A stretch of DNA of 61,680 bases, filler included, from Hausera hauseri (Eukaryota), in the NCBI GenBank assembly GCA_046269625.1. It is 9 parts of 9 records of this genome, joined end to end, with 100 filler letters (N's around TTAATTAATTAA, not from the genome) between each part and the next. Parts side by side here need not be neighbours in the genome. Positions count along the whole stretch, not along the records: positions 49,506 to 61,680 come from JBJURY010044443.1; 8 more parts are not named here. The stretch is one strand, 5' to 3'. Position 1 is the first letter of the stretch. Every line of letters starts with the position of its first letter. The position numbers were made by a program, and so were the translations under genes. Under the pieces are notes generated by a model, which saw only the letters and a program-made list of their open reading frames with translations, searched no databases and was not told where the DNA came from. Of the stretch, positions 10,246 through 61,680 are shown piece after piece.

Positions 10246-10745
10246 TTAAATATTTTCATTAACCCTTTCTTTACTTGCGAGACTTCAAGTCCCAGTGGTA
10301 AATTGCGATTAAAAATCGATCTAGACTTCTGTACGGTCACTTTACCAGCGGGACTTCGTGGTCCCAGTTGGAGGAATGTGATTTATTGAACGAATCCAGT
10401 TTTGATTTCGTATTTACGACTGATATTCCTGTCAATCACGGTGTTNNNNNNNNNNNNNNNNNNNNNNNNNNNNNNNNNNNNNNNNNNNNTTAATTAATTA
10501 ANNNNNNNNNNNNNNNNNNNNNNNNNNNNNNNNNNNNNNNNNNNNGCCCACATCAGAAAAACAGCCGTAAGTGGACAGATCTCATGAATGATTTCTTTCT
10601 TTACTGAGTGGCGTTTAAAGAAAAGAGGCTTGGCCAGATCAAATTCACCTTAAAGAGATTGAAACACCAAGTGTTGTCAGCGAGCAGGTCCGGTCCTTCT
10701 GACGATTCTTTACTTTTAATCAACATGTTCGTCCGCTTTCCACAG

Positions 10746-10848
10746 GACGTCTGACAGCTGCCACACTTCTCCCGTCACCACGCCTCTCATTCTGTACGAC
10801 GGGTCAGAGGAGGAGCTGATGGACACCATCGAAAGAGAGTTCAGCTGA
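10746..10848 (+). CDS. cys1: Probable terminal coding exon of a teleost cystin-1-like gene
   Basis: Acceptor ttccacag, then TSDSCHTSPVTTPLILYDGSEEELMDTIEREFS*, matching my recollection of the cystin-1 C-terminus (YDHSEExLMASIEREY); flanks 10546-11058 are GC-richer and fish-like. Confidence 0.55.
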
Positions 10849-11059
10849 CAGGTCAGCTCAGCACACTGCAGCAGAGCCGTACCCGCTGGTTTCAACATGA
10901 GAAACTTGGATCCAGCTCAAACAGAACTCCTGACTGTTGAAGTTGATGGAGCTGTGTGTCTGCAGCATCAGAGGCCAAACAGAACCCTGAGCGGATCAGA
11001 ACCTGTCCAGGAGACTCCTATCGGTTCTGAACAGGTTTTGGACTGGTCTGGTTCTGAAT

Positions 11060-13150
11060 TTATCCATCCAAATCGACACTTTCTTGATTGATTCTGGTAT
11101 CTATCAGATCTTCATCGTCTGGTTGTGATCCTGGCCTGATGCGTTCAATAGGTATAAGTGTGGGTTGCATTTGTTTCAACAATAGCAAATATTTAATCTG
11201 GCCGTTAAAAAATTGTTCTGTAACCGATTCAAGTGTATTTGATACAATTAATTTAATTCGCAATTTGGTACTGAGCTGTACTCCGAAATTTACGGGTAGC
11301 TTCAGTATTACTGTTGTTTTCTGATATGGCACCAGAAAGTATTGACTGTCCGGTCTTTGATAAATGACTCCAATGAAGTTATTTCTTTCAGAGTTCCATT
11401 TTGAAATTCGTCTACATGTAATGGTCTTTTTGAAGAAATAGGGTCTGTCAATGTGATGTATTGGGATTGGCAGAGTTAGATGATCTTTCTTCAATAATAT
11501 ACCGAAATGGAATGCCATTTTTTCTACATTGTTTAAGCACCTTTCTATTTGTTGGGCCAATTTATCCGAATTTGATAACATTGTGTGAGTCATTATATCC
11601 TTGGTTTGGGGCGGGTGTTTCCATAATCCGATTTCTAAATCTTCATCGTTAACATCTGCTGCGAGTATTTGCTGAATATCTCTGTTATCCACTATATCCT
11701 CTGATTGTTCTGACTCCGGATCTTCTAGAGATATATTATCAGGAGTATTGAGCTCCATATCTATATCAATTTGTTCGTTGGTATCATTTTTTTTCTTACC
11801 ATTAACCAAACATACGTCAATTTTATGTATCCATCCGAAATTTTCTAGATACTTCTCTCTTCTATAAAATAGCTCACCAACGTCTATTATATTTTCTTGG
11901 GGATTGTCAGGTGTCCAATTTACTTGTCTTGGTTCATTGATGATATGTAAAATATCCATAGTTAATTCAAGTTTTCCATCTGTATCCTGATTATAAAGTT
12001 GACCATTCCGAAATTTTGGCAGTTTCAATTCTTTTGCAACATTGGTAATATCTATGGTAGTAAAAGTGACTCCTGTCACTTCTGGATGTTTCAGTATATC
12101 TATCACTCCTGCCAAATAATTTGGGTGGATTTCAAATATCTGTATCATTCTATGGGTATCAATACCCATCACTATGGTGCCGAAGAGCCATTGTGTTAGT
12201 TCTTTGGAAACTTCAAAAACATCAATTCCTCTTGATTGTAGAATCTGGAAATCGATTCCATGTCGGCCAGTGTTACAGTTATGAACTCTGTCTCTATTTA
12301 CCACGAATGCTCGATATAAGGTCTTTCCTTTCATATCTGAAACAATCACTTCTAACGGCATAGGAGATCCATCCACTTTGTAACCCAACGACACAGTCAA
12401 TACTCGAACGTTGTTTGATTGATTAGTTTGCAGATAATTTAGTTTTGAGTCCATTATAATTTCCGGCGGTGTCTGAGCTAGCACCATTGGACGTGGCATA
12501 GATAAGTGCTTTTCAGGTAAAAGCCACTCAATCATAAGTATTAGTGGTAGTCTGTTTGGTCTGAACTGAATTAGATTGGCATTCATAGGCGTGTTTATGG
12601 CTAACGTCTCCTCCTCAAAAAGGGTTGCTATATTGGACATATTATATTGAGAACTTCTTGATGTTTTTATGACAAGGTTACCTCTTGTCATGTGCAATAT
12701 GAGGCCATCAATAGAGGGACATTCTGTTATGTATTCTTCTAGTGATCGCTGATGTGATTCCGTAATGGTGGTAATTTTTATATGTCTGTTGACAGTCGGT
12801 CCATATTTCAATGAATTGGGAATCTGGGTTACATGATAGAAAAACTGCTCAGGATATACTGTTGCTTCTCTTCTGATATAATTGTAAAAAGTTCTGGACA
12901 TGGTTTTGGTAAATGATGAATTCTTAGATGCATACTGTGATAATAACTGTTCTATTGGGAGAGTGTCAGCATGAAACAATGGAAACAAACTAGTGGATCT
13001 GTTTTGGTGATGAATTTGTGCCATATCTTTTTTGTTTCTGATTCTTCGGTATCTGTCTTTGTGTTGGTGGTACAGGGGTAAAATATACCTTAAGCAGTAC
13101 CTAACATATAAATAATTCTTCTCCAATTCAACCCCGAGTTTTCCAGACAT
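11060..13150 (-). CDS. 696-aa protein with an inactive DEDDh (ISG20/REX4-like) exonuclease-fold domain; homologue of 57468-58856
   Basis: QIPNSLKYGPTVNR vs QIPNNLKGYSMSNR; PLEVIVSDMKGKTLYRAFV..VHNCNTGRHGI..TIVMG..LAGVIDILKH vs PIECSVITLDGQTLFYSVI..INNFDTHLTGL..KVIIG..IAGVRDILYH. Confidence 0.75.
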   Translation of the reverse strand: MSGKLGVELEKNYLYVRYCLRYILPLYHQHKDRYRRIRNKKDMAQIHHQNRSTSLFPLFHADTLPIEQLLSQYASKNSSFTKTMSRTFYNYIRREATVYPEQFFYHVTQIPNSLKYGPTVNRHIKITTITESHQRSLEEYITECPSIDGLILHMTRGNLVIKTSRSSQYNMSNIATLFEEETLAINTPMNANLIQFRPNRLPLILMIEWLLPEKHLSMPRPMVLAQTPPEIIMDSKLNYLQTNQSNNVRVLTVSLGYKVDGSPMPLEVIVSDMKGKTLYRAFVVNRDRVHNCNTGRHGIDFQILQSRGIDVFEVSKELTQWLFGTIVMGIDTHRMIQIFEIHPNYLAGVIDILKHPEVTGVTFTTIDITNVAKELKLPKFRNGQLYNQDTDGKLELTMDILHIINEPRQVNWTPDNPQENIIDVGELFYRREKYLENFGWIHKIDVCLVNGKKKNDTNEQIDIDMELNTPDNISLEDPESEQSEDIVDNRDIQQILAADVNDEDLEIGLWKHPPQTKDIMTHTMLSNSDKLAQQIERCLNNVEKMAFHFGILLKKDHLTLPIPIHHIDRPYFFKKTITCRRISKWNSERNNFIGVIYQRPDSQYFLVPYQKTTVILKLPVNFGVQLSTKLRIKLIVSNTLESVTEQFFNGQIKYLLLLKQMQPTLIPIERIRPGSQPDDEDLIDTRINQESVDLDG

Positions 13151-15885
13151 GAGGCATCACGTTTTTAATTAATCGGATATCTCTGTTAGTCTCCTGATCC
13201 GAAGGATTATGAGTTCCAAAATAATCTTGGGTTCGACGTAAACCCCATGTGCAGAGATGCAGCCATTTAAACCTCAATTTTCTATTCATTCTATATCCAT
13301 ATGGACCTACACCAATCCAAGGATCACCCATTGGTTTGTAGCAACGAAATTATAGCTTTTATCAATAAAACTAAAATGTTAATCCTATCGAAATATTAGA
13401 ACAGGAATGATCATTACCCACTTTACACATTTAGATAGGCCAAGGCTGTGAGACGTAAGTTGGGTATGTATTGGAATCATAATATTGTAGGTAACTCGAG
13501 TCGGGCATATATTGGAATCATAATATTGTAAGTTAATTCGTGCAATTTGACATATTCGATGTCCCGACGATTATCAAAATTTAATGGGATGACTAGGAAT
13601 TTTCCAAAGATAATTAATAAGATACATCCGATGTCCCGACGATTATCAAAATTTTCAATGTAATCATCTATATATAGCCGTTACTAAAAATACTTCTTAC
13701 CAAATTCAAATTCCATTTACGCATGTTTTGGTTATATTTATAAATTCACCTTTACCATTAAGATGTTTATTTACTTCATTTCATTATTCGGTTTGTTGGG
13801 CGAACTACTATTCTTTACGCATCGGACACCGATCTAGACCCGATAGGTAGGGCGTACACGAAATTTACCATTATCTAATCGATAACCACAAACGCAGTAG
13901 AAATACAGGGAATCGATGATAAACATCCCCGAATAATTTCCTCAAATGTTATTCATCAGGATTATACCATCTCTCATCCTCGTAATACTTTTGCTAAAAC
14001 AGCGACGTGTACCCTTTTGTATATGCAACGAAAATTTTTGGGTTAAGACGGTTTCACCAATCGTCTTTATGATCGAGGTCAGATATCAAGTATTGCGTTA
14101 TTTACGGTATCACTCCTCCTTTCTACACAACTGGAATTTATCCAAGGCCAAATATACAAAATTTAACATGATTCTTTTGCAGTCGGACTGAATATAAATT
14201 CGTTCAATTTTCACTAATAGTACCATCTTTTAACGACATCACCCGTCGAATTGACACCCCAATGATATATATCGATCTGTGTTCGTCAGTGATTATTCTA
14301 ACCATTGGCTTGGTCCTCACTGGGCAATCATTGAGCTGGTCCTGATCTCTAGCGATTCTTTCACTACAATATCTCTCAATATCCCAGCCTGTATGATGAC
14401 TGTCCCCAAATAGGAGGAATCTTTCCTTTTAATTTTCGTCTATGCGAACTAAAAATTTTTAGTTTCTAACTCCATCGCTTCTATATCTGCACATACCAAT
14501 CTGGATAATTGGTTGGCAATATTATCAAACGGCTTCCAGTTTTTTAATTAACCCTGGTTAGAAAAGATGCATCCAAATCAAAACATGAATCATTCATATA
14601 ATATTCTCTCATCTCTATCAGATCGTTCACAGCCGCATAACAATTTCATCTTGCGCCTTTTCAATAATCTCATCATGCCGGAAAGCTAATTACCAAAAGA
14701 AGCCGAAATCTAGTTCGGGGAGTCATTGATTCTAAAATAACATCACACTGTTAAGGTTCACCCGGGAACATCTGAACGACAGACTAACAAATCTGACTTG
14801 CTCAAAGTTTCAGGATTAGCTGAGGTATTAGTACGCTTCTTTAAGTCAGCTCTTTCTAACGTTTACAGTACATCAAGATACTTTCCAAATCATGACCCTT
14901 TATTCGGTATCCATCCAGATCGGTAATCTTCTGACAAGCCAAGGATAAACTCCAATTGATATAACAACTATTACTGATCCATGCATCTTAAACTTTAAAA
15001 CGGTATTTATACGCAGCGGAAACCGCATCTCTTTATCGCACAACTAAATATAAAATTTTATTTATAGGTACAGCACAGATAATCACGTAAATATAACTCT
15101 TCTTGTTTATCAAATATATTCAATGAACAAATTGTGATCGTCGTTATTCAAAACAATAACGCATATTGAATCAGCATCATGCGACCTTGAGTTGCCGTAA
15201 GTCCATTCTTTCTCAATTCGACTACCGGCTTGTCTCTGTTTGGATTTCCCTAATTTACACAACCTTCCATAATTTAACTAAATCAAAATGATTCGAAATC
15301 GATAACCTTCGAACTACATTTTACAATTATATTAGACATGATATCGATGTAAACAGGATTCTCCGTAAACCGCAATACCATTAATAATCGTTATATTCAT
15401 TGTCACAGAACGTTCAAGGAGGCAATCATCTATCATATCGGTGTACTGCTAGCCAATTCATTGTCATCCTGTCGTATATCCCGTGTCTTGTCGATTCTTT
15501 CGCTATGCATCTGTATACAGGGGGTCTCGACAGCCATCTTCTTTAATCTTTGGTCCATAATGACTAAGAGGCCAATCTTGTTATCAAATTTATTTTTTAA
15601 AATATTTATTGTACTACAATGATTTACACAAAAATAAAAACAAAATAGAATCAAAATAGATGAACCGAAGACACACGTACCCGATTCCAATTCCAACGAG
15701 TTGATAGAGACATCATTATTGTTCGTGGCCATGGTCCTATTATTGACTATAATTATCAAAACTTTCAATGTAAGATCCTACCTTGGATTCCAAATTTCAA
15801 AATTGAATAGGTTGAAGGTAAAATAAGTGTGTTTTTAAGGTTTTTGAGGCAAGTTTATATACTTGCGTGTTTCTATTTTCAGGGA

Positions 15886-16340
15886 TGACGCAAATTTATT
15901 TTTGGAGATTGCGACACTATGTCGTTATTTTCCAATTTTAATTTTGGAAAACCAAACACAATTCTTTCAATGACGCAAATTTATTTTTGGAAATTGCGAC
16001 ACTATGTCGTTATTTTCCAATTTTAATTTTGGAAAACCAAACACAATTCTTTGATGGAATCCCAACACTATATCCCCATTTCCAATATGACAAATCCATT
16101 TTTTAAAATTGATCCACAAATAATAATTTGCTTATATTTTCAAAATATTTTCAAAATACAATCTCGTGCATTTTTAGAATTGTTCCACAAATAATAATTT
16201 ACGCATATTTCTAAAATATTAATTTTTCAAAATACAATCTCATGTATCCACAAATAATAACCTACGCATATTTCTAAAATATTATTTCCCGAAATAATAT
16301 ATTCAATAATCTACGTGCAAATAATAATTTGCGTATACTT
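15886..16340. repeat. Tandem/nested direct repeats: ~85-bp duplication TGACGCAAATTTATTTTTGG..., then CCACAAATAATAA/CATATTTCTAAAATATT units
   Basis: Visible near-identical copies at 15886 and 15971; further short duplications at 13468-13655 and 16495-16575. Confidence 0.85.
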
Positions 16341-20628: not shown

Positions 20629-22964
20629 GATTTCAAATAGCATGATGCAATAACGTAATCCAAGTTGGGACTACTTTTTGCGTAGTGTTTTAATTACCAT
20701 GACGTAATAAGACCACGGGAAAAATTTACATTGGAAGGCACAGAGAAACAAAGAAATCGATTCGAAAAGATACACGAAAATACAACAACAACCTATCAGA
20801 AGAAGCAGAAACAACCACCAAGAAAGAAAACACGAAACAAATGTATGATCCCACTAAGAAATAAACATGAAACTTTGGAAGACCAAGAAAAATATGTAAA
20901 AGGCAAAAAGGAAATACGATTTTAGGGTTAAGAAAACAAATGGATACACAAATGAACTATTACACAGACCAACAGCGACAAAACCCACCAAATATTCCTC
21001 CTGAGGCAATTAGACTTATCTGTATACTGTGATTTATGAACTTGAGAAATAGTTAATCAGCGCACAAGATTGGAATGATAAGAAAAGAGACTGACATAAA
21101 GCCAAAATGGAAGGCTATAAGAAACAGTTAACAAAAGAAACAAGCAGCTTTTTTACGAACTCGCCCACTTTCTTTTACAATTTTATTCTTTTCTATTTCA
21201 TTTTCCCTTGACTTTTGTCATGCACTGTTTTTTCCTCCATCTGTTGGGCCAAGTCTCGAGTGCTGTGTGCAGAGTCTGTGCTCTCATCGCTGGGGGACTT
21301 CTTAAAAGTACGGTGGAAAAGTTGAGATGTGAAAAATCCTAACATGAAAACTTGCTGCTATGACAAAAAAACGCCAATATGAAAAGTTACTGACATGAAA
21401 ACACGAGACATGACACAATGTTGAAAAGAAAAATTGTCGACACGCCAAAGATACCAATATGAAAAGTTGAGATATGAAAACTTGAGACGCGGAAAGTCAT
21501 CGACATGACAAACTCACTGACATGACAAAGTCATCGATCTGAAAGTTGACGACCCAAAGGTTGTTGACATGACCGTTGTAGAAATGAAGGTTGTTGACAT
21601 GAAAGACTCCAACATGACAAAGTCGCTGAGATGAAAGTTGTCGACACGAAAGTTGTTGACATGACTGTTGCAGAAATGCAGGTTGTTGACATGGAAGTTG
21701 CCAACATGACAAAATCGCCGACATGGCGAAATCGCCGACACGAAAGTGAAAACTTGTTGATGTGAAAAATCCTAACATGAAAACTGGAGATGTTGAACGT
21801 CGCCGATATGAAAAACGTTCCAACATGTCAAAGTCGCTGATATGAAAGTTTATGCCCCGAAAGTTGTCGAGATGAAAGTTAAAACTTGTCGACGTGAAAA
21901 ATCCTAACATGAAAACAGAAGACATGGAAAGTCGCTGATGTGAAAACGTTCTAACATGTCAAAGTCGGTGACATGAAAGTTGATGACTCGAAAGTTGTCG
22001 ACATGAAAGTTAGCGATATGAATGTTGTCAACATCAAGGTTGTCGACATGTAAACTTGTCGATGTGAAAAATCCTAACATGAAAACTTGAGACTTGGAAA
22101 GTTACCGACATGAACCTTACCAACATGAGAAAGTCGCTGAGATTAAAGTTGTCGACACGAAAGTGAAAACTTGTTGCCGTGAAAAATCCTAACATGAAAA
22201 CTGGACACACGGAACGTCGCTGAGCATGAAAAACGTTAAAACATGTCAAAGTCGCTGACATGAATATTGATGCCCCAAAAGTTGTTGGCATGAAAGTTAA
22301 TGATATGAATGCTGAAATGTCTTGTTTATTTCTCTTTGATCAAAGTCACAATAATCTTTTGGTATCGGTATTGCTAGGTTCTCAGCCAATCTTTCTGCTT
22401 TCGCCATTTCTGTGATGTGAAAGTGGGCGAGTTCGTAAAAAAGCTGCTTGTTTCTTTTGTTAACTGTTTCTTTTAGCCTTCCATTTTGGCTTTATGTCTG
22501 TTTCTTTTTTTTCGGGCCAAGCTTGTGCGCTGGTTAACTATTTCTCAAGTTCATGAATCACAGTATACAGATAAGTCCATTTGCCTCAGGAGGAATATTT
22601 AGTGGGTTTTTTCGGTGTTGGTCAGTTTAATAGTTTATTTGTGTATCCATTTGTTTTCTTAACCCTAAAATCTTATTTTCCTTCTTTGTCTTTTTACATA
22701 TTTTTCTTGGTCTTCCAAAGTTTCATGTTTATTTCTTAGTGGGATCATATATTTCTTTCGTGTTTTCTTTCTTGGTGGTTGTTTCTGCTTCTTCTGTTAG
22801 GTTGTTGCTGTATTTTCGTGTATCTTTCCGAATTGCTATCTTTGTTTCTCTGTGCCTTCCAATGTAAATTTTTCCCGTGGTCTTATTACGTTACGGTAAT
22901 AAAAACACTACGCAAAAAGTAGTCCCGTCTTGGATTACGTTATTGCATCATGCTATTTGAAATC
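20629..22964. mobile_element. Foldback/MITE-like non-coding element with ~545-bp inverted arms (20629-21172 and 22419-22964)
   Basis: GATTTCAAATAGCATGATGC...CTCGCCCACTTTC is reverse-complemented as GAAAGTGGGCGAG...GCATCATGCTATTTGAAATC with scattered substitutions. Confidence 0.9.
21310..22312. repeat. Degenerate minisatellite of ~15-17-bp units (GACATGAAAGTTGTC-like) with higher-order ~130-bp repeats
   Basis: Dozens of ACATGAAA/AAGTTGTCG units; TGTGAAAAATCCTAACATGAAAAC recurs five times. Confidence 0.9.
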
Positions 22965-49505: not shown

Positions 49506-49582
49506 TTTTTTTGTTGATCCATCCATACTCCATACAGACGCGACTACTGCTTTCTGTGTTTCTGTTTTATCAGGTATTCTCG
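49506..49582. repeat. 77-bp terminal direct repeat identical to 61604-61680 (assembler circular overlap)
   Basis: TTTTTTTGTTGATCCATCC...GGTATTCTCG at both contig ends. Confidence 0.97.
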
Positions 49583-52500
49583 ATAAGTAGTCGGCATTAG
49601 CATTTCGCGATCCAGGTTTGTACTGGAAATTCAAAGTATACGGCTGCAACTTTAGAGCCCATCGTAATAATCTACTGTTGGGATTTTCATGCTGCTTCAG
49701 CCATTGGAGTGGTCTATGGTCAGTATAAATCAGAAGAGGTTTGTTTTCACTAATATATGGTGAAAATACTTCTAACGCAAATATTACTGCCAATAACTCT
49801 TTTTCTATCACAGCGTATTTCTTTTGGTGCTTATTGAGTTTTCGTGACGCATAAGCTACTGGATGTTCCTTCCCATCTTCTCCTTTCTGTGATAATACAG
49901 CTCCTACTCCGTAATCACTTGCGTCGGTTGCCAAAATAAAAGGTTTGGTCATATCCGGATAAATTAATATGGGGGCTGTTAGTAGTCTATCTTTTAAGTA
50001 ATCAAAGGTTTTCTGACACTCGTTCGTCCAAATAACTTTATCTAAGTCCTCTCGTAGTAACTCGTACAAAGGCTTTGCGATTTTGCTAAAATCCTTTATG
50101 AATCTTCGATAATAATTGGCTAAGCCTAGAAACTGACGTAGTTCCCTAACCGTACTCGGTTTAGGAAAGTCTCTTATCTTTCCTAAGAGCTTATCCTGAG
50201 GTTTTACACCATTTCTATCTACTTTATGTCCGAGGAAATCTACTTCTGTTTGAGCAAAAGAACATTTCTTAGGATTTATCTTCAAACCCATTATTTTGCA
50301 TCTATCAAAGAGATCCTGTAGATCTTTCATGTGTTGTTGGAAATCTGATGATGCTATTATTACGTCGTCTATATATACCATGGCATGGGGGGCATCTAAT
50401 AACAGAAGTTCTGTTCCTCTCTGGAATGTCGGTGGCCCGTTTTTTAGCCCGAATGGCATTCTATTAAATTCCCACAGTCCTTCGCCGATGGAGAAGGCTG
50501 TCTTGGGTTTGTCTTCTTCTTTAACCTCCACTTGCCAATAGCCCTTTTGCAAATCTATAGTCGTGAATATGGTTGATCCATGCAATTTATCTAGTATTTC
50601 GTCAATTCTTGGTAATGGATATGTGTCCGTTTCTGTTATCTCGTTTAACGCTCTATAGTCTATGCAGAATCTCATAGTCCCATCTTTTTTCTTAACCATC
50701 ACTACCGGAGCTGTCCAAGGTGAACAGCTCGGTCGAATTATCTTATTTTCCCTCATTTCCTTTATTATTTTTCGTGCTTCTTGTTTTTTGTCAAATGCCA
50801 ATCGATATGGTCTCTTTTTAATTGGCTTATCTTGTCCGTCTTTTAACTTAATGGCATGTTGAATAACCTTCATAGTGCCTAGGTCGTAATCCGTTTGAGC
50901 GAATCGGTTATTATTCCTTTCTAGTAACTCTATTAACAACTTCTTCTCTTCTTTACTTAAAATTATACATCCTTGTAATCTTTCATTCCAGTCGATGTTT
51001 GTAGGCTTACCTTTTTTGTTACTATTTGATTTTTGTTTTTCTATCATCATCTTTTCTATTTTGTCCACCTCTGATGTTATCGTGCAGCTCTCTTCTTTTA
51101 TCACTTCTTCCATTGTTGTTATTTCTCCCAACCTAGTATCCTTTCGCAACCGTTTTTCTTTTTTTGTTGTATTACATATAAGTAAGTGAACTTTTCCATC
51201 TCTTACCTTATCCACATGAGGAGCTATTAGTAATTCGTACTTTTCCATAACCTGTGGGGATGGTTCAAAATATATAATATCTGGTAGGACGCGACTTTCT
51301 ATTCTTCCAGGCACCACTATCTCAGATCGAGGTGGAATTGTGGTGTCTTTCACTAGCGAGACCATTCCTTCATTGCGATCATCATTAAACGTCTTAAGTT
51401 GACCGGTCTTTACATCTATATAAACATTTTCCAATTGGTTTAGAATGTCACATCCTATTAAAATTTCGTTGGTTAAGTTATCTGCTATTCTTATCGTATG
51501 TTTCACGATTTGTTTGCCTATTCTAATTTCAGCGTCTAAGACCATTTTTATTTCTTCTTCTGTGCCAAATGCTCCTATGTTTACTAATGTATTGATTGGT
51601 TTCCGTAATTTCCTTTTTAATTCCTTTGGTAATTGGCTTCTTCCCATTATTGTCGTCGTAGATCCCGTGTCTAGTAACGCGGTCATGGGGTGTCCGTTTA
51701 CCTCTATTTCGATTTCCGGTCTTATAGGGTGTTGTTGTGCGTTTTTATCATTTGTTTTATACGTTGTTTCACGTTTATAGGGCTCTGCATTTTCTTCAAA
51801 ATTTCGTTGCATCTGTTGTACTTGGTGCATTGGATATAATCCTGTGTGCACTACATATCGTGGAGCTGAAGGATTCATTGGTGGTAATTCATTATATGGT
51901 CGCTCGTTATATGATTGTCCATGGTATTCGTCTGCTGGGTCTAGACGAGGCAAATCCGTTATTAACTTACGTTTATATTTTGGCCTTCGTGTCCTCAACA
52001 TTAAGTGTTTAATATTATTTATATGTTTCTTTGGTTTTCTTTGACTATCTTCAATATCACTATCATCGGGCATACTATATGTGGACTCCTTTACATCCTT
52101 TCTTTGTATTAACTTCCTTTTCCATCGTGCATCGTGATTCGCTAGAAAGCAACTGGCTACGGCAGGTATTACTGCTATTAAGATTTTCCATGAACATTCT
52201 ACTGCTGCATGTATTCCATAGGCTTTACCTAATGCCGTAAATACCGTTCGAATAGCGCTAATGATAAAGTATATGGCTAGGAAACCGGAGGCTGCTTGAC
52301 CGAAATACAAAAATTTTCCCCACATCTTTTCCATGACGTTTTTCGTTACTTTCCTTAGATAATCTTTTCCCATAAGGTTTTCCCATTGTGGTGACCCTTC
52401 GCCATCCCACATTACTCTCCGGGTTAACTCTGTTATAACTCTCTGTCTTTGCTGGGGAAATAGCAGCATTCGTCGATAATCTTCTAAATTTTGTTGTGTG

Positions 52501-55500
52501 TAAATTCCTCCCTGGGATATTCCTGTCAATGGTTCAAATTTTTGATTCCTTTGTAAGTTGATCAGGCTTAATGTCTCTGGATTAGATACTGGCTCTCTTT
52601 TTGGCATTCTGACCCATTTATTGTTATCAATCTTAAACATGGGTGACATATTAAATGTGCAATTGTATAATGGAGTAGGTTTCACGTTAACATCTAAAAG
52701 TATTCTTGTTACTGGCATAACATATCGTGGTTCCGCATGATAAATTACTGGTAGTTCCATAGTGCATTCATTCGTCGGTCGAATTGATACTTCTACTTTC
52801 TTGCATTCTATTGTTATCAATACCTCGCCCATCACTCTTCCAATAATTCCATCACCAAAGGGCATTACAGGAGCTACCATGTCCGGATTTGTTATTACTA
52901 GTGCCATTTTATTACGCACTATTTCATAGTTTAGCTTACACTCGTTCGTTATTATCTCACGGTATAAACTTCTAATTTCCTTTCTTACATAATTTATCAA
53001 GAAGTCGATCTTGTTATCGAAATATTGTGACAACTTTATATCTTTCTTATCGATTTTAGTTTTTGCACCGGGTATTTCTTTTCTTGATAAGAAGATACCC
53101 TTATAATTAGTTTTTGAGACTTCTTCATTACATTTCGTTGCTACTCCCGTGATCTTAAATCTCATCATGTCCTCCGGATTTTCTGAATATACAATCGTAG
53201 CTACCTCCGTCATCTTTACTTCCTTCGTTCCTTCTTTAAACGTTGCTGTCTCCTTTTCTGCCGTTTTTCCCACTGTCTTATTAAATTTTCCTTCTTTCAA
53301 CAGTGTTAGTTGACATTTGCTTACCGTGGTTTCCCACGTCATTTTCGATTCTCCGGTGTCGCATTCTCCATTGTCATATTCGCATTCGCTCATCGTTGTC
53401 ATTAGTTTTGTTTGTGAATCAAATAACGCTTCATATTCTTTCAACTGAATTTGGTAATCTTCGATAGCTACCGTTCTAGGTGCAATAGTACCTCCTACGT
53501 CGTAATCTACTCCCTTACACGTGCCTTCCCTAGTCTTATCTATTCTTCCTGCCCTGAAAATTCTGGTGTATTTTATTCGGTTTCTAACTGCCGGTATGTG
53601 GGCATTTTGTATCGTAATAATGCCAATCTTGAAAGCATCCTGACACTCCGCTCTTGATACTATAATCGGTTCAAAGGGTGTCGTAGGCTCAATTATAGCC
53701 GAGTTTCCGGAATAGTAAGCGCAGTTGAACAGGAAGAACGACCTTTTAACATAACATTCCCTAACCTTTGCTTTTATAAACTCCGATTCTTGATATACCC
53801 AATAAGTGAGACCACCTGTCGTTGTTAACCGTTCTGGATCAGCTTCTGGACACTTTTCCAAATCTACTAGTGAATATTTTTGACCTTCGCTGGGTTTAGA
53901 GCAATCATAAGCTACTATACCCACTGCTTTAGGCATAAGTAGCGATGTTATTAGGAGTATCTGTATAATTTCCATCATTGACATACCTGGTTTATTAATA
54001 CCTGGTTGCATCGGAGTTGGTGTCTCTATCAGTCTTTCTCGTTCTCCGGGCCTTATTGCATTAGTCATGAGGCTGGTTAACCATCCGCCTCTGCATTGAG
54101 CCCAATTTCCCAGTGTATCTTTCAATATTTTCACAACCGTCTGTATGTTCCGTTCTATCTCTTCTAAATTTTGAGTTTGATGGTTAATCACTATTATCTT
54201 GTATATGAGATATGATATAGCCGTTCTAGCTTTTTCTCGTGTAATCCCTGTGGCGAACATTTTCTCCAAAATATCCAACTCGTGTAATTCGTTTATTCGT
54301 TCCTCATCTAAATTCTCATAAAATTGCCTACTTATTCGAAGCATATTATTACGCAGGGTTGTAAATAATTCATCTGGGATTATTGTCTGCATGTCAAATG
54401 AAGCAAAGGACGTATGTAATTTGGCTAACAGCGTTCTTAATAATGGGTCTATGTCCACTGATTCAGACATGCCATCTGTTCCTGCTAATAGTAAACGTCT
54501 TACTATTTCCTCGTTCCTATCTTTCCTATTACGTATGTCACTTATTTTCGTTCCTTTTGGCCTACCTCTTCTTTTACCTTCTGTTTGGACTGTAACATAT
54601 CGTGCCTCTCCTATAGGAACTTCTTCAACTCTGTGTGGTTCCATTTCCCTCAAGATATCCTCCACTGTTGCTTGTGCTCGAGCTTCAGGATGTATTTCGG
54701 TTATAATTACCGGATTGTAATTCTCACTTCTACATCCTATTCTCAATAATTTATCATAATTATATAACGTCCTTCCGTAATAATTTAATCCATAGGGACT
54801 TCCTTGATAAAAAGGTTCAAGTTCCTCAATCTTCTCTCTTAAAGATTGTATATCATCTATTTCGTTCATCCTAATAACCCTCATATCTTGATTACCTTCT
54901 CTTACTGTTATCCGTATGACTTCATTTCTTCCTTTCTCGTCCTCAGCGGCTTTAGCTAATATCGTTCTTGCTATTTCTCTAATGGGATTGGTATCTTGAG
55001 CCAATAATACCAGTTTAGGTAAAATTTCCTTCATCTTTTCTATCGTTATTTTATTGTTAAGTATTTTTAGAATAGTGGTAGTCGTTCCATCCACATCGAT
55101 TATATTATCTGGATCGACAGTCATTACTGCCTGAATAATATCTTCTTCTTCGTCTAGGTCTACTCCTGGATTCCTTATTACTTCATCTAATACGGTATCG
55201 TCAAACATTGGCGTAACTTGAGTTTCTTCTGGACTAAATGAAGGTGAGGGTGTGCTAAGGCTTTTCTTTCTTCCTCTTTTCTTTTCTTTTACTACCTCTT
55301 CCCTCTCCGTTGATGTTTCTCTTGATTCGGTTTCTACATCAATTATTTTCCTATTGCTTTTCTTTCTTCCTCTCTGAGATACCTGTTTCTGTGGTTGATC
55401 TCCTATCATGTAAATACTGCTTTCCTTCAACCTTTGTTGTTGCCTTTTATATTCCTTTAATTCTATTTCTAATCGCTTTTTCATACGTGATGGTAACGTA

Positions 55501-56531
55501 TCATCGATGTAATTAGTACTCTCTTTCTTTTTATCTTTTTTCTTCACTTCAGATTCGCTAACACTATCCTCCGTCTCATATTCTTTATCGGAAGATTCAT
55601 CTGACGTTGTTAACGTATAGTCTTTCTTAGATGGTTTCTTCTTATTACTTGATTTTGAGGGATCTCCTTTACGTAATTTGCACGACTTGGCTATATGCCC
55701 ATATTTATTACAATTGAAACATTTTAATCTTCCTTCGGAATCAATATTGGGTAAGGATCGTCCATCTTTCTTGAACTTCTTTTTGTATCCTGTCTTCTCT
55801 CCATCATTCTTTAAATTAAACCTTACTTTCTTTTCTCCGTCCGACTCGGCCTCTGTAGCTGATGTCTGTGAGGGGCTTCGATTCCTATTATAACGTTGAT
55901 ACTTCTGTGTACTTTTTTGCTTATCGTCATTATTGTCGTAGTTTCTGGATTTGTTCCACTTATATAATTCAGCGTCTCGTTCGGCTTTACGTGCCTTTCT
56001 TATAGCCTCCTGGAAGGTAGACGGATCAGCCTGTAATATTATACTTCTTAATCTGCCTTCCAGTCCGTATTGGAATTGAGCCAACAGCGCATTACTTCTT
56101 ATTACTGCATCGGGGTACGCCCTTGCGGCTAGCTTTTCCAGTGCACAGACAAAATCTTGGACTGTCTCATCTTTTCGTTGCCTCCGTCTTATAAATTCTT
56201 CTATTCTCCCCTTTCCAGAGGGATCAACTAGAAATTTCTGAGGTAACTTATCTTTGACAGTCTTCCAATCTTTCTTTTCTTCTTCTGGCATCTGAAAGAA
56301 AATTGTTAATGCAGTTCCTTTTAGGTGAAGAGGTAACCTCTCCATCCTTTGTTGGTCATTCCATCCGAAGCTTTTTGAATATACCTCATATTCCATTATG
56401 AAGTCTTGCACATCTTCTTTTCCTGAAAATTTCTTCATCGGGAGGGTGAAATCAGCCTTTGACTGAATCACCTGTTCTACATTATGGTTAGCCATTGTTT
56501 CTTCTTCACTTAGGTCTCTCAAATATTCCAA
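49506..56531 (-). CDS. Polyprotein part 1: Gag (CA, CCHC 55680-55721), UBL (54684-54923), chuvirus-type glycoprotein (52141-53984), protease (DTG 51663-51671), dUTPase-like spacer, RT (YIDD 50364-50375), RNase H (~49580-49945)
   Basis: FSGKEDV..F..GW; CFNCNKYGHIAKSC; LLDTGS; SPWTAPVVMVKKKDG, CIDYRALN, DLQKGYWQ, MPFGLKN, YIDD; ATDAS, EKELLA, TDHRPL; no stop or frameshift. Confidence 0.96.
52141..53984 (-). other. Embedded envelope domain: internal signal peptide, Cys-rich Jingchuvirales/Monjiviricetes-type class III fusion glycoprotein, TM anchor
   Basis: MSMMEIIQILLITSLLMPKAVG/IVAYDC; EC.VK; GTCKG; NECKL...NPD.VA....G..GRVMGEV...C..VEVSIRPT.EC..ELPV.Y.....PVTRIL; GGIYT; TM FGQAASGFLAIYFII. 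Confidence 0.85.
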
Positions 56532-56635
56532 TCCGAAGGGTTCGTCTTTGTCTGGGTGATAAATCGTTCCTTTCCTAGTAGTAATGGTGGTACTTTCTTA
56601 ATCTAAAGGTCCTAAGATAAATCGAGAGATTAATT

Positions 56636-56654
56636 ATCCCGGGTCACGGCACCA
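56636..56654 (-). promoter_or_regulatory. Primer-binding site complementary to tRNA-His
   Basis: TGGTGCCGTGACCCGGGAT, 3 nt after ...TTAACA LTR end; close match to the tRNA-His PBS TGGTGCCGTGACTCGGAT. Confidence 0.9.
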
Positions 56655-56657
56655 GTT

Positions 56658-58875
56658 TGTTAAATACCCACTAATTTCTTTTATAAAGAACTTTTATAGG
56701 TACACTTAATTAGGGGGATTAACAAATATGTTCGTTTCGTTTGACCAGCAGAGGGTATAGATCGTGATTTCAGACGGTCTTACCTAACTATCAGTAGGTA
56801 ATGTGTTTTGTTTAAGTCAGTATTTCACGTTACCCACTAAGGATTATTATCCTATATATTATTTAATATTAAACGGGTGGTCGTCAGGTAGGGTTAGACC
56901 TGGTCGACCGAGAGCCAAGTTATTTGACGATTACTTATTTACTTTGGTTTAGTTAAATGAAACCAACAACGTTTATACAAAAATATAATTGATAAAATAA
57001 GAAAAATGATATAACGAAAAACAATGAAAGATTAGAATTCACCATAAGCAATACACTTACTAGAAGACATGTCGTATCGTACGATCAGAAATAAAAATTG
57101 TTCAAGTTTGTGGTGAAAATCCATTGTATTTATACTTAATCAAAAATCACATATTTGTCCATATTAGGACTAATAATGTATGTGCACAAAAATTAATATC
57201 CGAATTAAGACATTTTAAATACATAACATGAATATAACATGAATTAGAATGTCACATATTGATCAAGACATGACAGGATATTGTCATGAACATTTATTTG
57301 AACAGTATTTATTTGAATCAAAGGATGACCAGTTGAACAATGTTCATAAATGTTTATTTGAATCCAGGTAACAATGTTATTTGAATGTTTATTTGAATCA
57401 AATGTGATCAAAGGATGGGGGGCACAAGAAAATTGTCCCGAATTTTATAAGAGGAAGACAACTTGTTTCATTGATCGAGCGGGAGTGGTACGTGGATAAA
57501 TTTGTCAGAAGTCCTGCTTTTGTATCTGATTGCTTCTGGCTCATAGACCTCATCGTCAATCACCATTGTTTCGGCGGTTTGGAACTTTCTTTTTCTTCCA
57601 GCTGTGGTTGGTGTTATTAGCACCGTATCGGAGGCCGAGGCTTGAGTAATCATCTCATCAGTCCACTTGAGTTGCTTGTAGATAGCCTGGTAGCATTGTA
57701 CCAAGGCAGTACTTCGGAGTGGCATTCCACGGGTATCGTAGAATTTCTTAGCCAACTCCTTATAGGTATTTGTCGTCAATTGATACTTACGGATAGCCTC
57801 TTCGTGATAAAGAATATCGCGAACTCCGGCTATCCGTCTGATTGGGCATTTACAATGGTTGATTATCATCTCGAGAACGTCGGCTCCTATTATGACTTTA
57901 TCTGTTAGGACTTCTGTGATCTTCCGATAGAACTCATTCACGTCCATTTGATTATTGATGTGGGACTCTGCCAAACCCGTTAGGTGGGTGTCAAAATTAT
58001 TGATTCTTTGACGCGGAGAGATGACACTATAAAAAAGGGTTTGACCGTCCAATGTTATAACTGAGCACTCAATAGGTTGCATCTGGTTCCACTGGTCATA
58101 TGCTAGGTTGATCGCGGCTATGACCAAGTCCTGGTTTGTGACGTGCTGGAGTCTTCTATATGGGATTGTCTTGTATCGTAAATAATCGGGTTCGGGGAGA
58201 TAAAAACATTTTCCTTCGGGAATGATAGGTTGAAGAACCTCCTGTTTGATGATCTCAAAGGCTATCATAATCCTGTTGGTCAAAGAACGTACTTTTACTG
58301 TGTTGTTCTTTATGAATTGGTACTCGAAGGCAAGGGCGTGGTCTTGATCCATATTTATTAGGTCTCCTTGGATCGAGGTCTTACGATTGGTTGATTTAAT
58401 ATGAAACTTGCCAGCGATGTTATAAATGTTCATTGAATGATATCTTTCGGGTAATATGATCAGATCTTGAATGTAGAAAGACGTTGCTTTTGTTAACTGT
58501 ATCAGGGCCAATGATCTGTTGCTCATGCTATACCCTTTCAGGTTATTTGGAATTTGAGGTGTTTGAGGATAGTTGAGACTATAGGTATAGTCATTATGGA
58601 TTACATAGTATTGACTGTTTGGGTTAGCATTAATGAGGTGGGTTTTGGCGTTGCTGAACCAATGTTTTGATCGGGTTATCGATTGAACTTGACGATCCGT
58701 TGAAATTGATACTGAAAGAAGAAATGTCAATGGCAAATCATTGTAGGTATCTACATACAACACAACGGTTATCAAACACACAGTGGTAATCGTTGTAGTT
58801 TTAATTTTTACTTGATTTCTATAGGTAACCTGATGAAGTGTGGTTATCTTTGTCAAAAGGGTTGCATAATTAGCA
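56658..58875 (-). repeat. Candidate single (collapsed) LTR, ~2.2 kb, TG...CA, containing the pseudo-exonuclease ORF
   Basis: 3' end ...TATTTAACA fixed by the PBS; 5' end TGCTAATTA (7/9 inverted match) follows purine tract AAGAGTAGGGA (58877-58887); the 5' boundary is inferred. Confidence 0.55.
57125..57420 (-). promoter_or_regulatory. U3-like promoter/enhancer
   Basis: TATAAA (57129-57134), CArG box CCATATTAGG (57159-57168), repeated (TG)TTTATTTGAA forkhead-like units, two ATCAAAGG TCF/LEF-like sites (57317, 57407). Confidence 0.55.
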
Positions 58876-58892
58876 ATCCCTACTCTTAACCG
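57468..58892 (-). CDS. Accessory ORF with inactive DEDDh exonuclease-like domain; probably expressed by readthrough
   Basis: ECSVITLDGQTLFYSVISPRQRINNFDTHLTGL..L...EFYRKITEVLTDKVIIG matches the REX4/ISG20 fold pattern; Exo I DxE replaced by NLA; frame open up to the TGA at 58893-58895. Confidence 0.75.
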   Translation of the reverse strand, partial: RLRVGIANYATLLTKITTLHQVTYRNQVKIKTTTITTVCLITVVLYVDTYNDLPLTFLLSVSISTDRQVQSITRSKHWFSNAKTHLINANPNSQYYVIHNDYTYSLNYPQTPQIPNNLKGYSMSNRSLALIQLTKATSFYIQDLIILPERYHSMNIYNIAGKFHIKSTNRKTSIQGDLINMDQDHALAFEYQFIKNNTVKVRSLTNRIMIAFEIIKQEVLQPIIPEGKCFYLPEPDYLRYKTIPYRRLQHVTNQDLVIAAINLAYDQWNQMQPIECSVITLDGQTLFYSVISPRQRINNFDTHLTGLAESHINNQMDVNEFYRKITEVLTDKVIIGADVLEMIINHCKCPIRRIAGVRDILYHEEAIRKYQLTTNTYKELAKKFYDTRGMPLRSTALVQCYQAIYKQLKWTDEMITQASASDTVLITPTTAGRKRKFQTAETMVIDDEVYEPEAIRYKSRTSDKFIHVPLPLDQ

Positions 58893-59450
58893 TCAGCTGG
58901 GGTTACCCGTAGCTGACGGATTTGTTATATCTCGTAAGTTGATTCGTATCCAATTTTGTTTCCTCCTACATTGTTTTCGTATCACTTTAAACAATATTAT
59001 TATTATTATCACACTTATTATAGGGACTATTAAACTTGTTATGATTATTTCTAAGCGAGAATATGTATACGTAGCTCTAGGTGGTTTTTTGGTGGTACTG
59101 TCTTTAATCGTGCTTACTCTATTTGATAATTTTACTTTATTACTTTTCGTGATTGCAGATAATACTTTCGTAGAAATTATTTTATTGTTGTCATCTAGCA
59201 ATTGCAGAATAACTGTATATCTCATATCAGACTCCAAGGCTGCACATGGCGCTATAAGGTCGTCAGGGGTTATCATTCCTTTAGCCACTATAGTATCTTT
59301 TTTCTTGCAGCTGAATTTTATTTTTGTAAAATCAAACTCTGGTTTTACAGAGATGATTAGTGCTGTTGGAGCTGCTATAACGGTTACATTGTCCCATATA
59401 GAACGTTTCTGCCGATAATACGAAACATAAGGTTTAACTATAATAGTCAT
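58893..59450 (-). CDS. Type I membrane protein module: furin site, FN3-like domain, Thr-rich stalk, TM, basic tail
   Basis: RQKR/S; LESDMRYTVILQL; STTKKP; IIITSLIVPIISVIIIIILF then KVIRKQCRRK. Confidence 0.75.
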   Translation of the reverse strand: MTIIVKPYVSYYRQKRSIWDNVTVIAAPTALIISVKPEFDFTKIKFSCKKKDTIVAKGMITPDDLIAPCAALESDMRYTVILQLLDDNNKIISTKVLSAITKSNKVKLSNRVSTIKDSTTKKPPRATYTYSRLEIIITSLIVPIISVIIIIILFKVIRKQCRRKQNWIRINLRDITNPSATGNPS

Positions 59451-61603
59451 ATTTTTTTATCAGGTGAGGATTGCACAAATGGTGTCGTGACTTTATCTTG
59501 TATATCGTCGTATTCTTTTTGGTTTTTATATCGTATGAACATCGTCGGGCCTTTCTTTTGTAATCTATTTTCAACTTTTCCATATTCTTTTCGTGACAGA
59601 GTATATTTTACTTCGTATATTTTCCCTCTAATTACATTGCAACAGACTCGTTGATGCTCGTCCGTTAATTCGCATCTCCCTATTCTTTGTTTCCCTCCAA
59701 TTTCTTTTATGGATATGGTTATCCATCGGATGTATTCTAACTCTATCATACTTCTTACCTCTAGACAACTTCTTCCGCTCTTAAATCCCATTGGTTTCAT
59801 TTTTAATTGTGCTAGAATTATTTCGTCACGCCATGACTCGTTCATTTCTTTTCTGTTGGGGATTCGTATATATTTGTAAAATTTGGTATATAGACTATAA
59901 TAATGATCCTCTTTCTTCTTTAGGAGTGTTAAATATATTCCATGCATTCCAGAAGTGTCTATGGGACATTGTGTTTCATTTGTTTCTGAATGAAGAATAC
60001 AATTATCGTGTCTTCCACCGGGACTTCTTTCATAACCGGAGATTGGGTTTATTTGCATCTTTATAATATATTCGCCGAATATCTGTCTGGTAGTGTACCA
60101 AATCATACATTTGCGACCTGTCATGGAGTATGTCATTCGATATTTCAAACTTTTCAACCATAAATCTTCATTTATGGCCGTGGCGTGCCGTATTTTGGCT
60201 TGTTCGACTTCTTGAGGGGTCATCTGTCCAAATACATAAGGAAGTAAGATGATCAATATCAATAAATTCTTTAGTAGCCAATGTAAGTTATAAGTCGAGT
60301 TTTTTATCTGCGCCTTTTCTTTGATACTTAATACTATTTCTTTTTCGCCCTTCCTTAGCTCACTGTCTTGCGGTGCTAATTTACATCTATTAACATGAAC
60401 CTTTATAGACGTGTTATTTTTCTTAATGCAAATGTTTGGTAAATCTACTTTTTCTACCTCATACGGCCCTTTGTATGGTCTATCCAATTTAGATGTTTTT
60501 CCCTTTTTAATCGTAGGTGAGTGTAACATTACTCGATCGCCTATTTTAATCTTGGGCTGTTCTGTCTTTTTGTCATAATATTTCTTATATTTCAACTTAT
60601 ACTCCTTTTGATTATCACCAATTATTCTATATGCCAGTTGGAGACGTTCTTGCATTAGCTGTTTATAGTCTTCTACCTCCATTAGATGAGAAATTGGTTT
60701 TACGTTAAAATCCAGATCAATTGGTATTCGTGCGTCTCGTAAGAACATTAAATAGAAAGGTGTTTCTTTAGTAGCCTCGTGGACCGATGTTCGGTTCACA
60801 AAAACGCATGCATTAATGTATTCATCCCAATCATCTTGTCGAGTATTGACCACTGTTTGTAATTTCCCCTTTAAATCTCCAATATATCTTTCGACCATTC
60901 CATTATTTTCTGGATGTCCTGGCGTGGATCGTAACTTTAGTATTTTTAAAATATTGTATATGGCTTGCATTACAGTTCCCGTTAAATTTGATGCTTGATC
61001 AGTCAAGAGAATCCTTGGGGCTCCGTAATTAAATATTATATTTTCCACGAATTTCTCGGCAATGGTGTCTGCTTTCATGTCAGCCATAGGTATGGCAACG
61101 ACCCACCGGGTAAAATAGTCGATAAAAACCAATATATACTTATTTCCATTCCGCGTTAATGGTAATGGTCCTGTTACATCCATCGCAGTAAACTCGAAAG
61201 GAGCTGGAGGGTTATCCCATACTTTTAGTGGAGCTTTAAATTTTGATCCCGTATTTTTCCTGGTAGCGCACAGTTTACAGCTTACACACCACTCCTGCAC
61301 ATCTTTCGTTATCGTAGGCCAGAAATATTTTCGTTTTAATTTGTTTAGCGTCTTATTGGCCGATTGGTGTCCTCCAAGTAATCCATCATGATATTGTGTT
61401 AATAGAACTGCTCTATTTTTCTGTGGAATCACTAGTGCAGGTCCGTTTTGACTAAGGAAATACAAAAATCCTTCTTTTTCCTCATATGCTTCGCTAAATC
61501 GAGCCAGATGTCGGGCTAAGTCTCGATCTGCTGGTATAGTTTTATCCTTTATAAATTTTCTGATAGCCCTTATCTCGATATCTTCGCTTTGATTGGCCTT
61601 AAT
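59447..61603 (-). CDS. Polyprotein part 2 (continuous with 49506-56531): integrase (HHCC, DDE, GPY/F) plus internal signal peptide and Cys-containing ectodomain
   Basis: HDGLLGGH..CVSCKLC; MDVTGP, LTDQAS, NGMVER; YKGPY; LHWLLKNLLILIILLPYVFG/Q at ~60228-60287. Confidence 0.93.
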   Translation of the reverse strand: MKANQSEDIEIRAIRKFIKDKTIPADRDLARHLARFSEAYEEKEGFLYFLSQNGPALVIPQKNRAVLLTQYHDGLLGGHQSANKTLNKLKRKYFWPTITKDVQEWCVSCKLCATRKNTGSKFKAPLKVWDNPPAPFEFTAMDVTGPLPLTRNGNKYILVFIDYFTRWVVAIPMADMKADTIAEKFVENIIFNYGAPRILLTDQASNLTGTVMQAIYNILKILKLRSTPGHPENNGMVERYIGDLKGKLQTVVNTRQDDWDEYINACVFVNRTSVHEATKETPFYLMFLRDARIPIDLDFNVKPISHLMEVEDYKQLMQERLQLAYRIIGDNQKEYKLKYKKYYDKKTEQPKIKIGDRVMLHSPTIKKGKTSKLDRPYKGPYEVEKVDLPNICIKKNNTSIKVHVNRCKLAPQDSELRKGEKEIVLSIKEKAQIKNSTYNLHWLLKNLLILIILLPYVFGQMTPQEVEQAKIRHATAINEDLWLKSLKYRMTYSMTGRKCMIWYTTRQIFGEYIIKMQINPISGYERSPGGRHDNCILHSETNETQCPIDTSGMHGIYLTLLKKKEDHYYSLYTKFYKYIRIPNRKEMNESWRDEIILAQLKMKPMGFKSGRSCLEVRSMIELEYIRWITISIKEIGGKQRIGRCELTDEHQRVCCNVIRGKIYEVKYTLSRKEYGKVENRLQKKGPTMFIRYKNQKEYDDIQDKVTTPFVQSSPDKKI

Positions 61604-61680
61604 TTTTTTTGTTGATCCATCCATACTCCATACAGACGCGACTACTGCTTTCTGTGTTTCTGTTTTATCAGGTATTCTCG

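What the first reader, a model, noticed from the sequence alone, without database searches (positions are those of the whole stretch)
57468..58856. Retroelement-encoded catalytically dead ISG20/REX4-like exonuclease conserved in two divergent copies
Seen: this ORF and the 696-aa ORF at 11060-13150 share an N-terminal block (QIPN.LK....NR) and the DEDDh-fold pattern. Both lack the Exo I DxE (NLA / SLG), yet both remain open despite strong divergence. Established: ISG20 is an antiviral DEDDh nuclease, and catalytically altered DEDD-fold domains act in piRNA biology (e.g. Maelstrom, Exuperantia). Inference: an RNA-binding decoy or anti-silencing accessory factor.
Basis: partly seen in the sequence, partly recalled or inferred. 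Interest (0 to 1): 0.8.

Follow-up and report, generated by a model that had tools for sequence, protein, structure and literature searches.

The report
Dead nuclease carried by enveloped retrotransposon
An envelope-carrying jumping gene in an animal genome has an extra gene whose RNA-trimming nuclease domain has lost all five catalytic residues, while about half of its relatives keep them, so the protein likely works by binding rather than cutting.

Summary
Real, with corrections. ORF 57468-58856 (minus strand) lies behind the integrase of a multi-copy Ty3/gypsy element of gag-env-pol order (Burro-like). It is a true, distant homolog of ORF 11060-13150 (23% identity over 261 aa; 0 of 1000 shuffles as high). 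Both join a predicted cupin-like barrel (the QIPN.LK block) to an ISG20/REX4-type DEDDh domain; the family profile hits ISG20L2 at E 2e-30. Of 45 aligned family rows, 22 keep DxE and 23 do not; one origin of the loss is rejected (p-AU 0.016). ORF696 is not shown to sit in a retroelement. Best reading: a long-lived pseudo-nuclease accessory factor that likely binds RNA or recruits proteins. Anti-silencing is untested, dN/dS could not be measured, and the structure models were poor. Active DEDDy exonuclease ORFs in rotifer LTR elements are published; I found no paper on a dead barrel-plus-DEDDh form. This scan noted the same kind before, on other DNA of this genome and of another genome.

The parts
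57468..58856 (-). ORF462: accessory ORF, barrel domain plus catalytically dead DEDDh domain; no ATG before codon 111
58242..58559 (-). Predicted double-stranded beta-helix (cupin / 2OG-oxygenase-like) domain, residues about 100-205, beginning with the IPN.LK motif; no HxD/E motif
57660..58127 (-). ISG20/REX4-type DEDDh domain, residues 244-399; catalytic positions read A248, N250, M330, L380, L385
58712..58734 (-). Candidate 3' splice acceptor (pyrimidine tract plus CAG; exon would begin at 58711, inside codon 49); similarity to P0001 rises from 9/36 before it to 30/48 after it
   Evidence: inferred, no RNA data
58893..59450 (-). ORF185 with a C-terminal transmembrane helix; its TGA stop is in frame with ORF462, 12 codons upstream
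58875..58887 (-). Purine tract followed by TG: candidate polypurine tract (if real, ORF462 would lie inside U3 of the LTR)
   Evidence: unresolved
59447..61624 (-). Integrase-containing frame (H2C2 zinc finger, rve core) with an unassigned C-terminal part after a hydrophobic segment
49506..56531 (-). Polyprotein frame: Ty3 capsid, CCHC knuckle, weak Bcl-2-like region, Monjiviricetes-type fusion glycoprotein, protease, RT, RNase H; runs off the contig end
56637..56654 (-). Primer-binding-site-like 18-mer starting TGG, 3 bases after a possible LTR end; only copy in the window at up to 4 mismatches
   Evidence: the match to a tRNA-His 3' end is recalled, not tested
61604..61680 (.). 77-nt repeat of 49506-49582: the contig is an assembly circle whose ends fall inside pol
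11060..13150 (-). ORF696: distant member of the same dead branch, on a separate contig with no recognisable retroelement gene; extra C-terminal 280 aa unassigned

Best explanation
ORF462 is an accessory gene of an envelope-carrying Ty3/gypsy retrotransposon; it encodes a predicted cupin-like barrel joined to an ISG20/REX4-type exonuclease domain that lacks all five catalytic residues, and the protein likely acts as a non-cutting RNA-binding factor for the element. Shown: position behind integrase in a multi-copy gag-env-pol element, DEDDh homology, loss of D-E-D-H-D, and a family with both intact and dead members in which the dead branch holding ORF462 and ORF696 is old. Inferred: an ancestor took up a host REXO/ISG20-like nuclease and fused it to a barrel; some lineages kept cutting (3'-end trimming), others lost it and kept the fold. 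The protein is likely made from a spliced subgenomic RNA (acceptor at 58711) and would hold RNA 3' ends or structured element RNA without degrading them, shielding them from host 3'-5' exonucleases or small-RNA pathways.
For: Element context: Pfam domains in order, PBS-like site, 24,206 contigs of run X1 laid on the element. Homology: family profile hits ISG20L2 E 1.8e-30, ISG20 3e-18, SDN1 8e-18; 5 of 6 NCBIfam rows for the domain alone are PolC, DinG or DEDD-type families, best E 5e-4; Atlas RNase_T 0.93. Catalytic loss: 22 of 45 rows keep DxE, all 22 with Exo II D/E and 21 with Exo III H and D; ORF462, ORF696 and P0001 keep none. Retention: ORF462 and ORF696 fall in one 16-row branch without DxE (SH-aLRT 93); non-catalytic residues persist in dead rows (P103 23/23, N104 22/23, K107 22/23, R282 23/23, D305 23/23); chance of no stop under neutral substitution about 1e-3 against P0001 and 1e-5 against ORF696. 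Precedent for binding by dead DEDD folds: PXL and Exuperantia (PMC13659232, abstract and passages).
Against: No binding or expression data. The dead domain is not basic, and PXL and Exu owe part of their RNA preference to a SAM-like domain, for which no match was seen here. Dead members diverge faster (median identity of the nuclease domain 0.23 against 0.38 in active rows), which also fits relaxed selection. Conservation among dead rows is inflated because the search profile was built from three dead sequences. Summed contig depth over ORF462 (447-3158) is lower than over gag-env-pol (2641-25691), so many relatives may lack it or have diverged. AlphaFold did not fold the nuclease domain (pLDDT 38 and 40).
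Confidence: 0.45

Rival explanations
1. The dead protein is a protein-binding mimic or adaptor: it keeps the surface of a host REXO/ISG20-like nuclease (or of an active family member) and titrates its partners or, when fused to a RING finger, marks them for ubiquitination, as retroviral accessory proteins do.
For: P0006, in the row group nearest ORF696, is dead and carries a C3HC4 RING at 747-790. Neutral surface charge. The same element carries a Bcl-2-like region (E 0.0013), and Burro elements carry apoptosis and ubiquitin modules (PMC6431247, passages).
Against: RING found in only 1 of 42 family proteins scanned; none in ORF462 or ORF696. No partner is known.
Confidence: 0.27
2. The selected part is the barrel domain (for example a dimer scaffold or ligand sensor), and the dead nuclease is only a structural appendage.
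For: The IPN.LK motif, H at column 145 (18/23) and E201 (22/23) persist in dead rows; the barrel is about as conserved in dead as in active rows (0.18 against 0.19), whereas the nuclease domain drops.
Against: Between ORF462 and P0001 both domains are equally conserved (82/126 and 105/160); between ORF462 and ORF696 the nuclease domain is the better conserved (42/158 against 24/116).
Confidence: 0.13
3. A functionless relic: a once-active exonuclease ORF drifting in young copies that have not yet gained stops.
For: Longer branches in dead rows; no dN/dS measured; only open frames can be found in protein databases; bdelloid ORF3s showed no significant departure from neutrality within genomes (PMC5408684, passage).
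Against: 16 divergent dead rows form one branch with paths of several changes per site and keep shared non-catalytic residues; stop-free chance 1e-3 to 1e-5, indels not counted.
Confidence: 0.08
4. The protein is still a nuclease with a rebuilt or unusual active site.
For: Acidic residues remain nearby (E263, D326, E329, D347). Recalled, not from a call: the Maelstrom domain cuts RNA without canonical DEDD residues.
Against: None of the five canonical positions is kept, and replacements differ among dead rows (A 13/23 at 248, R 6/23 at 250), so no shared new site is visible.
Confidence: 0.07

Closest known systems
DEDDy-type exonuclease ORF3 of bdelloid rotifer LTR retrotransposons Juno and Vesta, and of Terminons (Rodriguez et al. 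2017, PMC5408684; passages read)
   Same: A DEDD-superfamily 3'-5' exonuclease ORF as an accessory gene behind pol in an LTR retrotransposon; roles in 3'-end processing or silencing were proposed there.
   Different: Those are RNase D-like DEDDy with intact catalytic residues (DEED); this is ISG20/REX4-like DEDDh, joined to a barrel domain, and dead in about half of the family rows.
Burro / GYPSM1 elements of planarians (PMC6431247; passages) and GAG-ENV-POL errantiviruses with gB-type env (Chary and Hayashi, PMC13524379; abstract, passages and section 5 part 1)
   Same: Env in frame between gag and pol, CCHC knuckle, Bcl-2-like region before env, accessory ORFs.
   Different: The passages read name no exonuclease or cupin ORF for these elements; this unit is about 12 kb, not about 30 kb.
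ISG20 / ISG20L2 / REX4 / SDN1 DEDDh exonucleases (PDB 1wlj, 7yw5, 5z9x)
   Same: Nearest solved relatives; strand-helix pattern, the G before Exo II, the RD motif and the terminal W are kept.
   Different: No catalytic residues; N-terminal barrel; encoded by a mobile element. In the tree the family is apart from the 7 REX4-like rows.
Host pseudo-exonucleases PXL (PML-1) and Exuperantia (PMC13659232; abstract and passages)
   Same: DEDD fold without catalytic acids, binding nucleic acid: the working model used here.
   Different: They are host genes with a SAM-like domain and a basic patch; neither feature is shown here.
AlkB / 2-ODD accessory ORF of orchid Ty3/gypsy elements (PMC9289625; abstract only)
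   Same: A double-stranded beta-helix accessory domain in a gypsy element, linked to RNA-level host control.
   Different: That domain is an active m6A demethylase; the barrel here lacks a conserved HxD/E motif and is not shown to be AlkB-derived.

Membership tests
DEDDh exonuclease superfamily (ISG20/REX4 group), by descent | Significant sequence homology to the RNase_T / ISG20 domain | tested here: met
   3-sequence profile E 2.1e-5; 45-row profile E 1.8e-30; 15 of 42 relatives hit RNase_T at E<=0.01, 12 above the curated cut-off. ORF462 and ORF696 alone do not hit Pfam RNase_T.
DEDDh exonuclease superfamily (ISG20/REX4 group), by descent | RNase H-like fold in a structure model | tested here: inconclusive
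   Models had pLDDT 38 and 40; fold searches with the domain model gave nothing meaningful.
Active DEDDh exonuclease | Exo I D-x-E | tested here: not met
   A248-I-N250 in ORF462, T-V-S in ORF696.
Active DEDDh exonuclease | Exo II D, Exo III H and D | tested here: not met
   M330, L380, L385 in ORF462; M, Q, K in ORF696; the Exo III alignment of ORF696 has gaps and is less sure.
Active DEDDh exonuclease | Metal-dependent 3'-5' exonuclease activity | not testable with these tools
   Needs an assay.
AlkB / 2OG-Fe(II) oxygenase (N-terminal domain) | Double-stranded beta-helix fold | tested here: inconclusive
AlkB / 2OG-Fe(II) oxygenase (N-terminal domain) | HxD/E...H iron triad | tested here: not met
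   An HxD/E occurs anywhere in the domain in 7 of 45 rows and in neither window ORF; one His column is conserved (Y145 in ORF462).
GAG-ENV-POL Ty3/gypsy errantivirus (host element) | Ty3 capsid, fusion glycoprotein, PR-RT-RH-IN in that order | tested here: met
   the contig ends fall inside pol and one contig of run X1 bridges them.
GAG-ENV-POL Ty3/gypsy errantivirus (host element) | Two LTRs with target-site duplication | tested here: inconclusive
   The contig is a circle, so LTR limits could not be read; PBS-like site present, PPT only a candidate.
GAG-ENV-POL Ty3/gypsy errantivirus (host element) | Placement in the pol phylogeny | not tested
   No named reference sequences were at hand.
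Maelstrom / Exuperantia / PXL pseudo-nucleases | Homology to MAEL or EXO-SAM architecture | tested here: inconclusive
   No such chain among 13 PDB sequences at E<=5 and no such Pfam family; the resemblance is functional analogy only.

The most novel reading that the evidence does not exclude
An undescribed family of retroelement accessory proteins (barrel plus DEDDh) has several times turned a captured antiviral-type exonuclease into a dead mimic that counters host RNA defence, by capping RNA 3' ends or, with a fused RING, by destroying host factors: an invertebrate counterpart of retroviral accessory proteins, possibly encoded inside the LTR.
Probability: 0.25. Interest if true: 0.8.

Novelty: new variant of a known kind. 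Interest (0 to 1): 0.52.

Why it matters
Accessory genes of invertebrate LTR elements are poorly understood and no suppressor function is established for the exonuclease type in the passages read. A natural series of active and dead versions of one protein makes the question testable: whether a mobile element keeps such a domain to cut or to bind. Repeated loss of catalysis with retention of the fold would be a clear case of pseudo-enzyme evolution in a host-transposon conflict.

Tried and rejected
Word-indexed homolog searches found only P0001 or nothing. Loci of relatives: 0 confirmed in 5 viral-contig scans and 2 metagenome scans, so the genomic context of the 104 other hits and any dN/dS stay open. 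No whole genome is held. Sequencing runs: one holder, no RNA holder listed. Of the 40 best-supported variants listed for run X1 (1224 more not shown), only 2 fall in ORF462: one synonymous (codon 375), one non-synonymous upstream of the candidate acceptor (codon 7); the other frames gave 20 synonymous and 18 non-synonymous: too few for ORF462. AlphaFold with 2-3 sequences failed for the nuclease domain; the fold searches on that model are no evidence. DDX6-type helicase and TFIIF rows in PDB searches vanished with the deeper profile and were rejected as chance. Atlas search of the N-terminal part gave only scores of 0.81 or less. Stop read-through from ORF185 (in-frame TGA-CGG) was considered; ranked below splicing because codons 1-51 are poorly conserved and two contigs of run X1 lack one base at 58814, upstream of the acceptor; the read-through frame matched no Pfam family. 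The acceptor is not unique: it is among the top 7 of 347 YAG sites of the element, and no phase-matched strong donor stood out. No Rfam match at 56400-59600; no tRNA gene in the window. Literature: searches listed no paper on a dead DEDDh or cupin-DEDDh ORF in LTR elements; subscription journals, Repbase reports and the supplements of PMC13524379 and PMC5408684 were not seen and may hold it. Malik et al. 2000 was not held. PMC12440569 (part 1 of 5), PMC6338049 (one passage) and PMC10123124 (abstract) added background only.

Full report
Setting. The window is a string of small contigs separated by N runs. The finding lies on the last one, 49506-61680, whose ends share 77 bases, so it is an assembly circle. 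On the minus strand it carries a 2.3-kaa frame with Ty3 capsid, CCHC knuckle, a Monjiviricetes-type fusion glycoprotein (E 1e-90), protease, RT and RNase H, and a second frame with the integrase. A weak Bcl-2-like match lies before the envelope (E 0.0013 on the part alone, below the curated cut-off). One contig of run X1 bridges the two ends inside pol, and 24,206 contigs of that run lie on the element, most at 85-95% identity, so it belongs to a large multi-copy family. Behind the integrase come ORF185 with a transmembrane helix, ORF462, about 800 non-coding bases and a primer-binding-site-like 18-mer. Env in frame between gag and pol is known from Burro elements of planarians (PMC6431247, passages) and from GAG-ENV-POL errantiviruses of nematodes, bryozoans and flatworms (PMC13524379, section 5 part 1). 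The host taxon was not tested here; unchecked scan notes call it a probable flatworm.

The observation. ORF462 and ORF696 are homologous: 23% identity over 261 aa, E 9e-11; no shuffle of 1000 reached the score, and the two halves were each significant. Neither hits Pfam. ORF462 alone hits ISG20L2 only at E 0.05, a three-sequence profile at 2e-5, and the 45-row family profile at 2e-30, followed by ISG20, SDN1, PolC and PAN2. NCBIfam and the ESM Atlas point the same way. The DEDDh call therefore rests on sequence; the AlphaFold models were poor (pLDDT 38 and 40) and did not confirm the fold.

Catalytic residues. An unindexed search gave 105 proteins at E<=0.001. I took 43 of them by eye as family members (long or two-domain matches) and left out 62 (fragments, nuclease-only matches and canonical REX4-like proteins, some of which also look like family fragments). 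With the two window ORFs this gives 45 rows. 22 keep Exo I DxE; all 22 have D or E at Exo II and 21 have the Exo III H and D, the other being truncated. 23 lack DxE; a few of these keep one of the two acids.

History. In a quick maximum-likelihood tree of the 45 rows plus 7 REX4-like rows (316 columns, catalytic columns left in), ORF462 pairs with P0001, ORF696 groups weakly (80) with P0006 and P0016, and all lie in a 16-row branch without DxE (SH-aLRT 93, not starred). The no-DxE label needs 4 changes, at least 2 forced by starred branches, and a single origin is rejected (p-AU 0.016). Eight rows, ORF696 among them, have long branches, so placement is unsure. Read with these limits, catalysis was lost more than once, and the branch holding both window ORFs has been dead for a long time while keeping non-catalytic residues. 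That list is biased by the dead query profile. A neutral-substitution estimate gives 1e-3 and 1e-5 for staying stop-free over the differences to P0001 and to ORF696. dN/dS could not be measured.

Expression. ORF462 has no ATG before codon 111, yet identity with P0001 is 30/48 in residues 52-99 against 9/36 in residues 1-51. A pyrimidine tract and CAG end at 58712, inside codon 49, among the top 7 of 347 such sites in the element. A spliced subgenomic RNA is the likeliest route; read-through of ORF185's in-frame TGA is the alternative. Neither is shown. Third-position GC is 0.47 against 0.29-0.33 in the element's other frames, which fits a separate origin or a swap of this cassette. A purine tract plus TG at 58887-58875 could be the polypurine tract, which would put the ORF inside the LTR, but LTR limits cannot be read from a circle.

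ORF696. It has its own ATG and a 280-aa tail without a family match. Its contig shows no RT, integrase, gag or env in 3.5 kb upstream (tblastn; Pfam on six frames of 13151-15900). It may belong to a larger element whose core lies off the contig, or be a stranded copy. Its best pairwise match tested is P0006 (24% over 291 aa, E 1e-17), which carries a RING finger.

Mechanism. Shown: a dead DEDDh domain with a barrel, kept over long times in an accessory slot. Inferred: it binds instead of cutting. Host precedents bind RNA (PXL, Exuperantia; PMC13659232), and host DEDDh nucleases restrict retroelements (PMC10123124, abstract), so an RNA-end shield is plausible (0.45). The neutral charge and the RING-fused relative favour an adaptor or mimic (0.27). 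Barrel-only function, relic and residual activity share the rest. If the host is a parasitic flatworm, the target would not be piRNA (PMC8191739, listing).

Novelty. DEDD-type exonuclease ORFs in LTR elements are published as intact DEDDy enzymes, with a passing comparison to Maelstrom and EXD1 (PMC5408684); an active AlkB ORF is published for orchid gypsy elements (PMC9289625). My searches listed nothing on a barrel-DEDDh family or its dead forms. Verdict: a new variant of a known kind, real and worth an assay, function untested, already seen elsewhere in this scan.

Noticed in passing
window 56632-57699: One contig of run X1 runs unbroken from the 3' end of ORF462 across the non-coding region into the PBS-like site at a depth like that of the other long pieces (9-14), with no sign of a flank; this would fit a one-LTR circle or a head-to-tail array rather than a collapsed provirus (contigs drop rare forms).
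   Followed up: partly
window 58893-60240: After the integrase core the frame has a signal-like hydrophobic stretch and a cysteine-containing part; ORF185 follows with a 4-base stop/start overlap and ends in a transmembrane helix. Together they look like a second, unassigned membrane protein; no Pfam match.
   Followed up: partly
window 54732-55082: Between gag and the Bcl-2-like region lies a stretch that looks ubiquitin-like by eye, as reported for Burro elements; Pfam gave no match.
   Followed up: partly
window 6309-6840: Broken remnant of a second, related fusion-glycoprotein gene (30-42% identity); the same contig has a decayed piggyBac-type DDE transposase.
   Followed up: partly
window 10546-11045: Right behind the stop of ORF696 the GC content jumps from about 0.36 to 0.46-0.53; no Pfam match. 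Could be captured or foreign DNA.
   Followed up: partly
window 20629-22964: Long inverted repeats (280 and 179 nt arms, 89-94% complementary) enclosing an array of 15-base-type repeats: a foldback-like element.
   Followed up: no
window 1219-2346: BEL/Pao-type gag (DUF1759) with a ubiquitin-like-looking N-terminus.
   Followed up: no
proteins P0030, P0080, P0091: Proteins with 3-4 tandem REX4-like domains, some lacking DxE.
   Followed up: no
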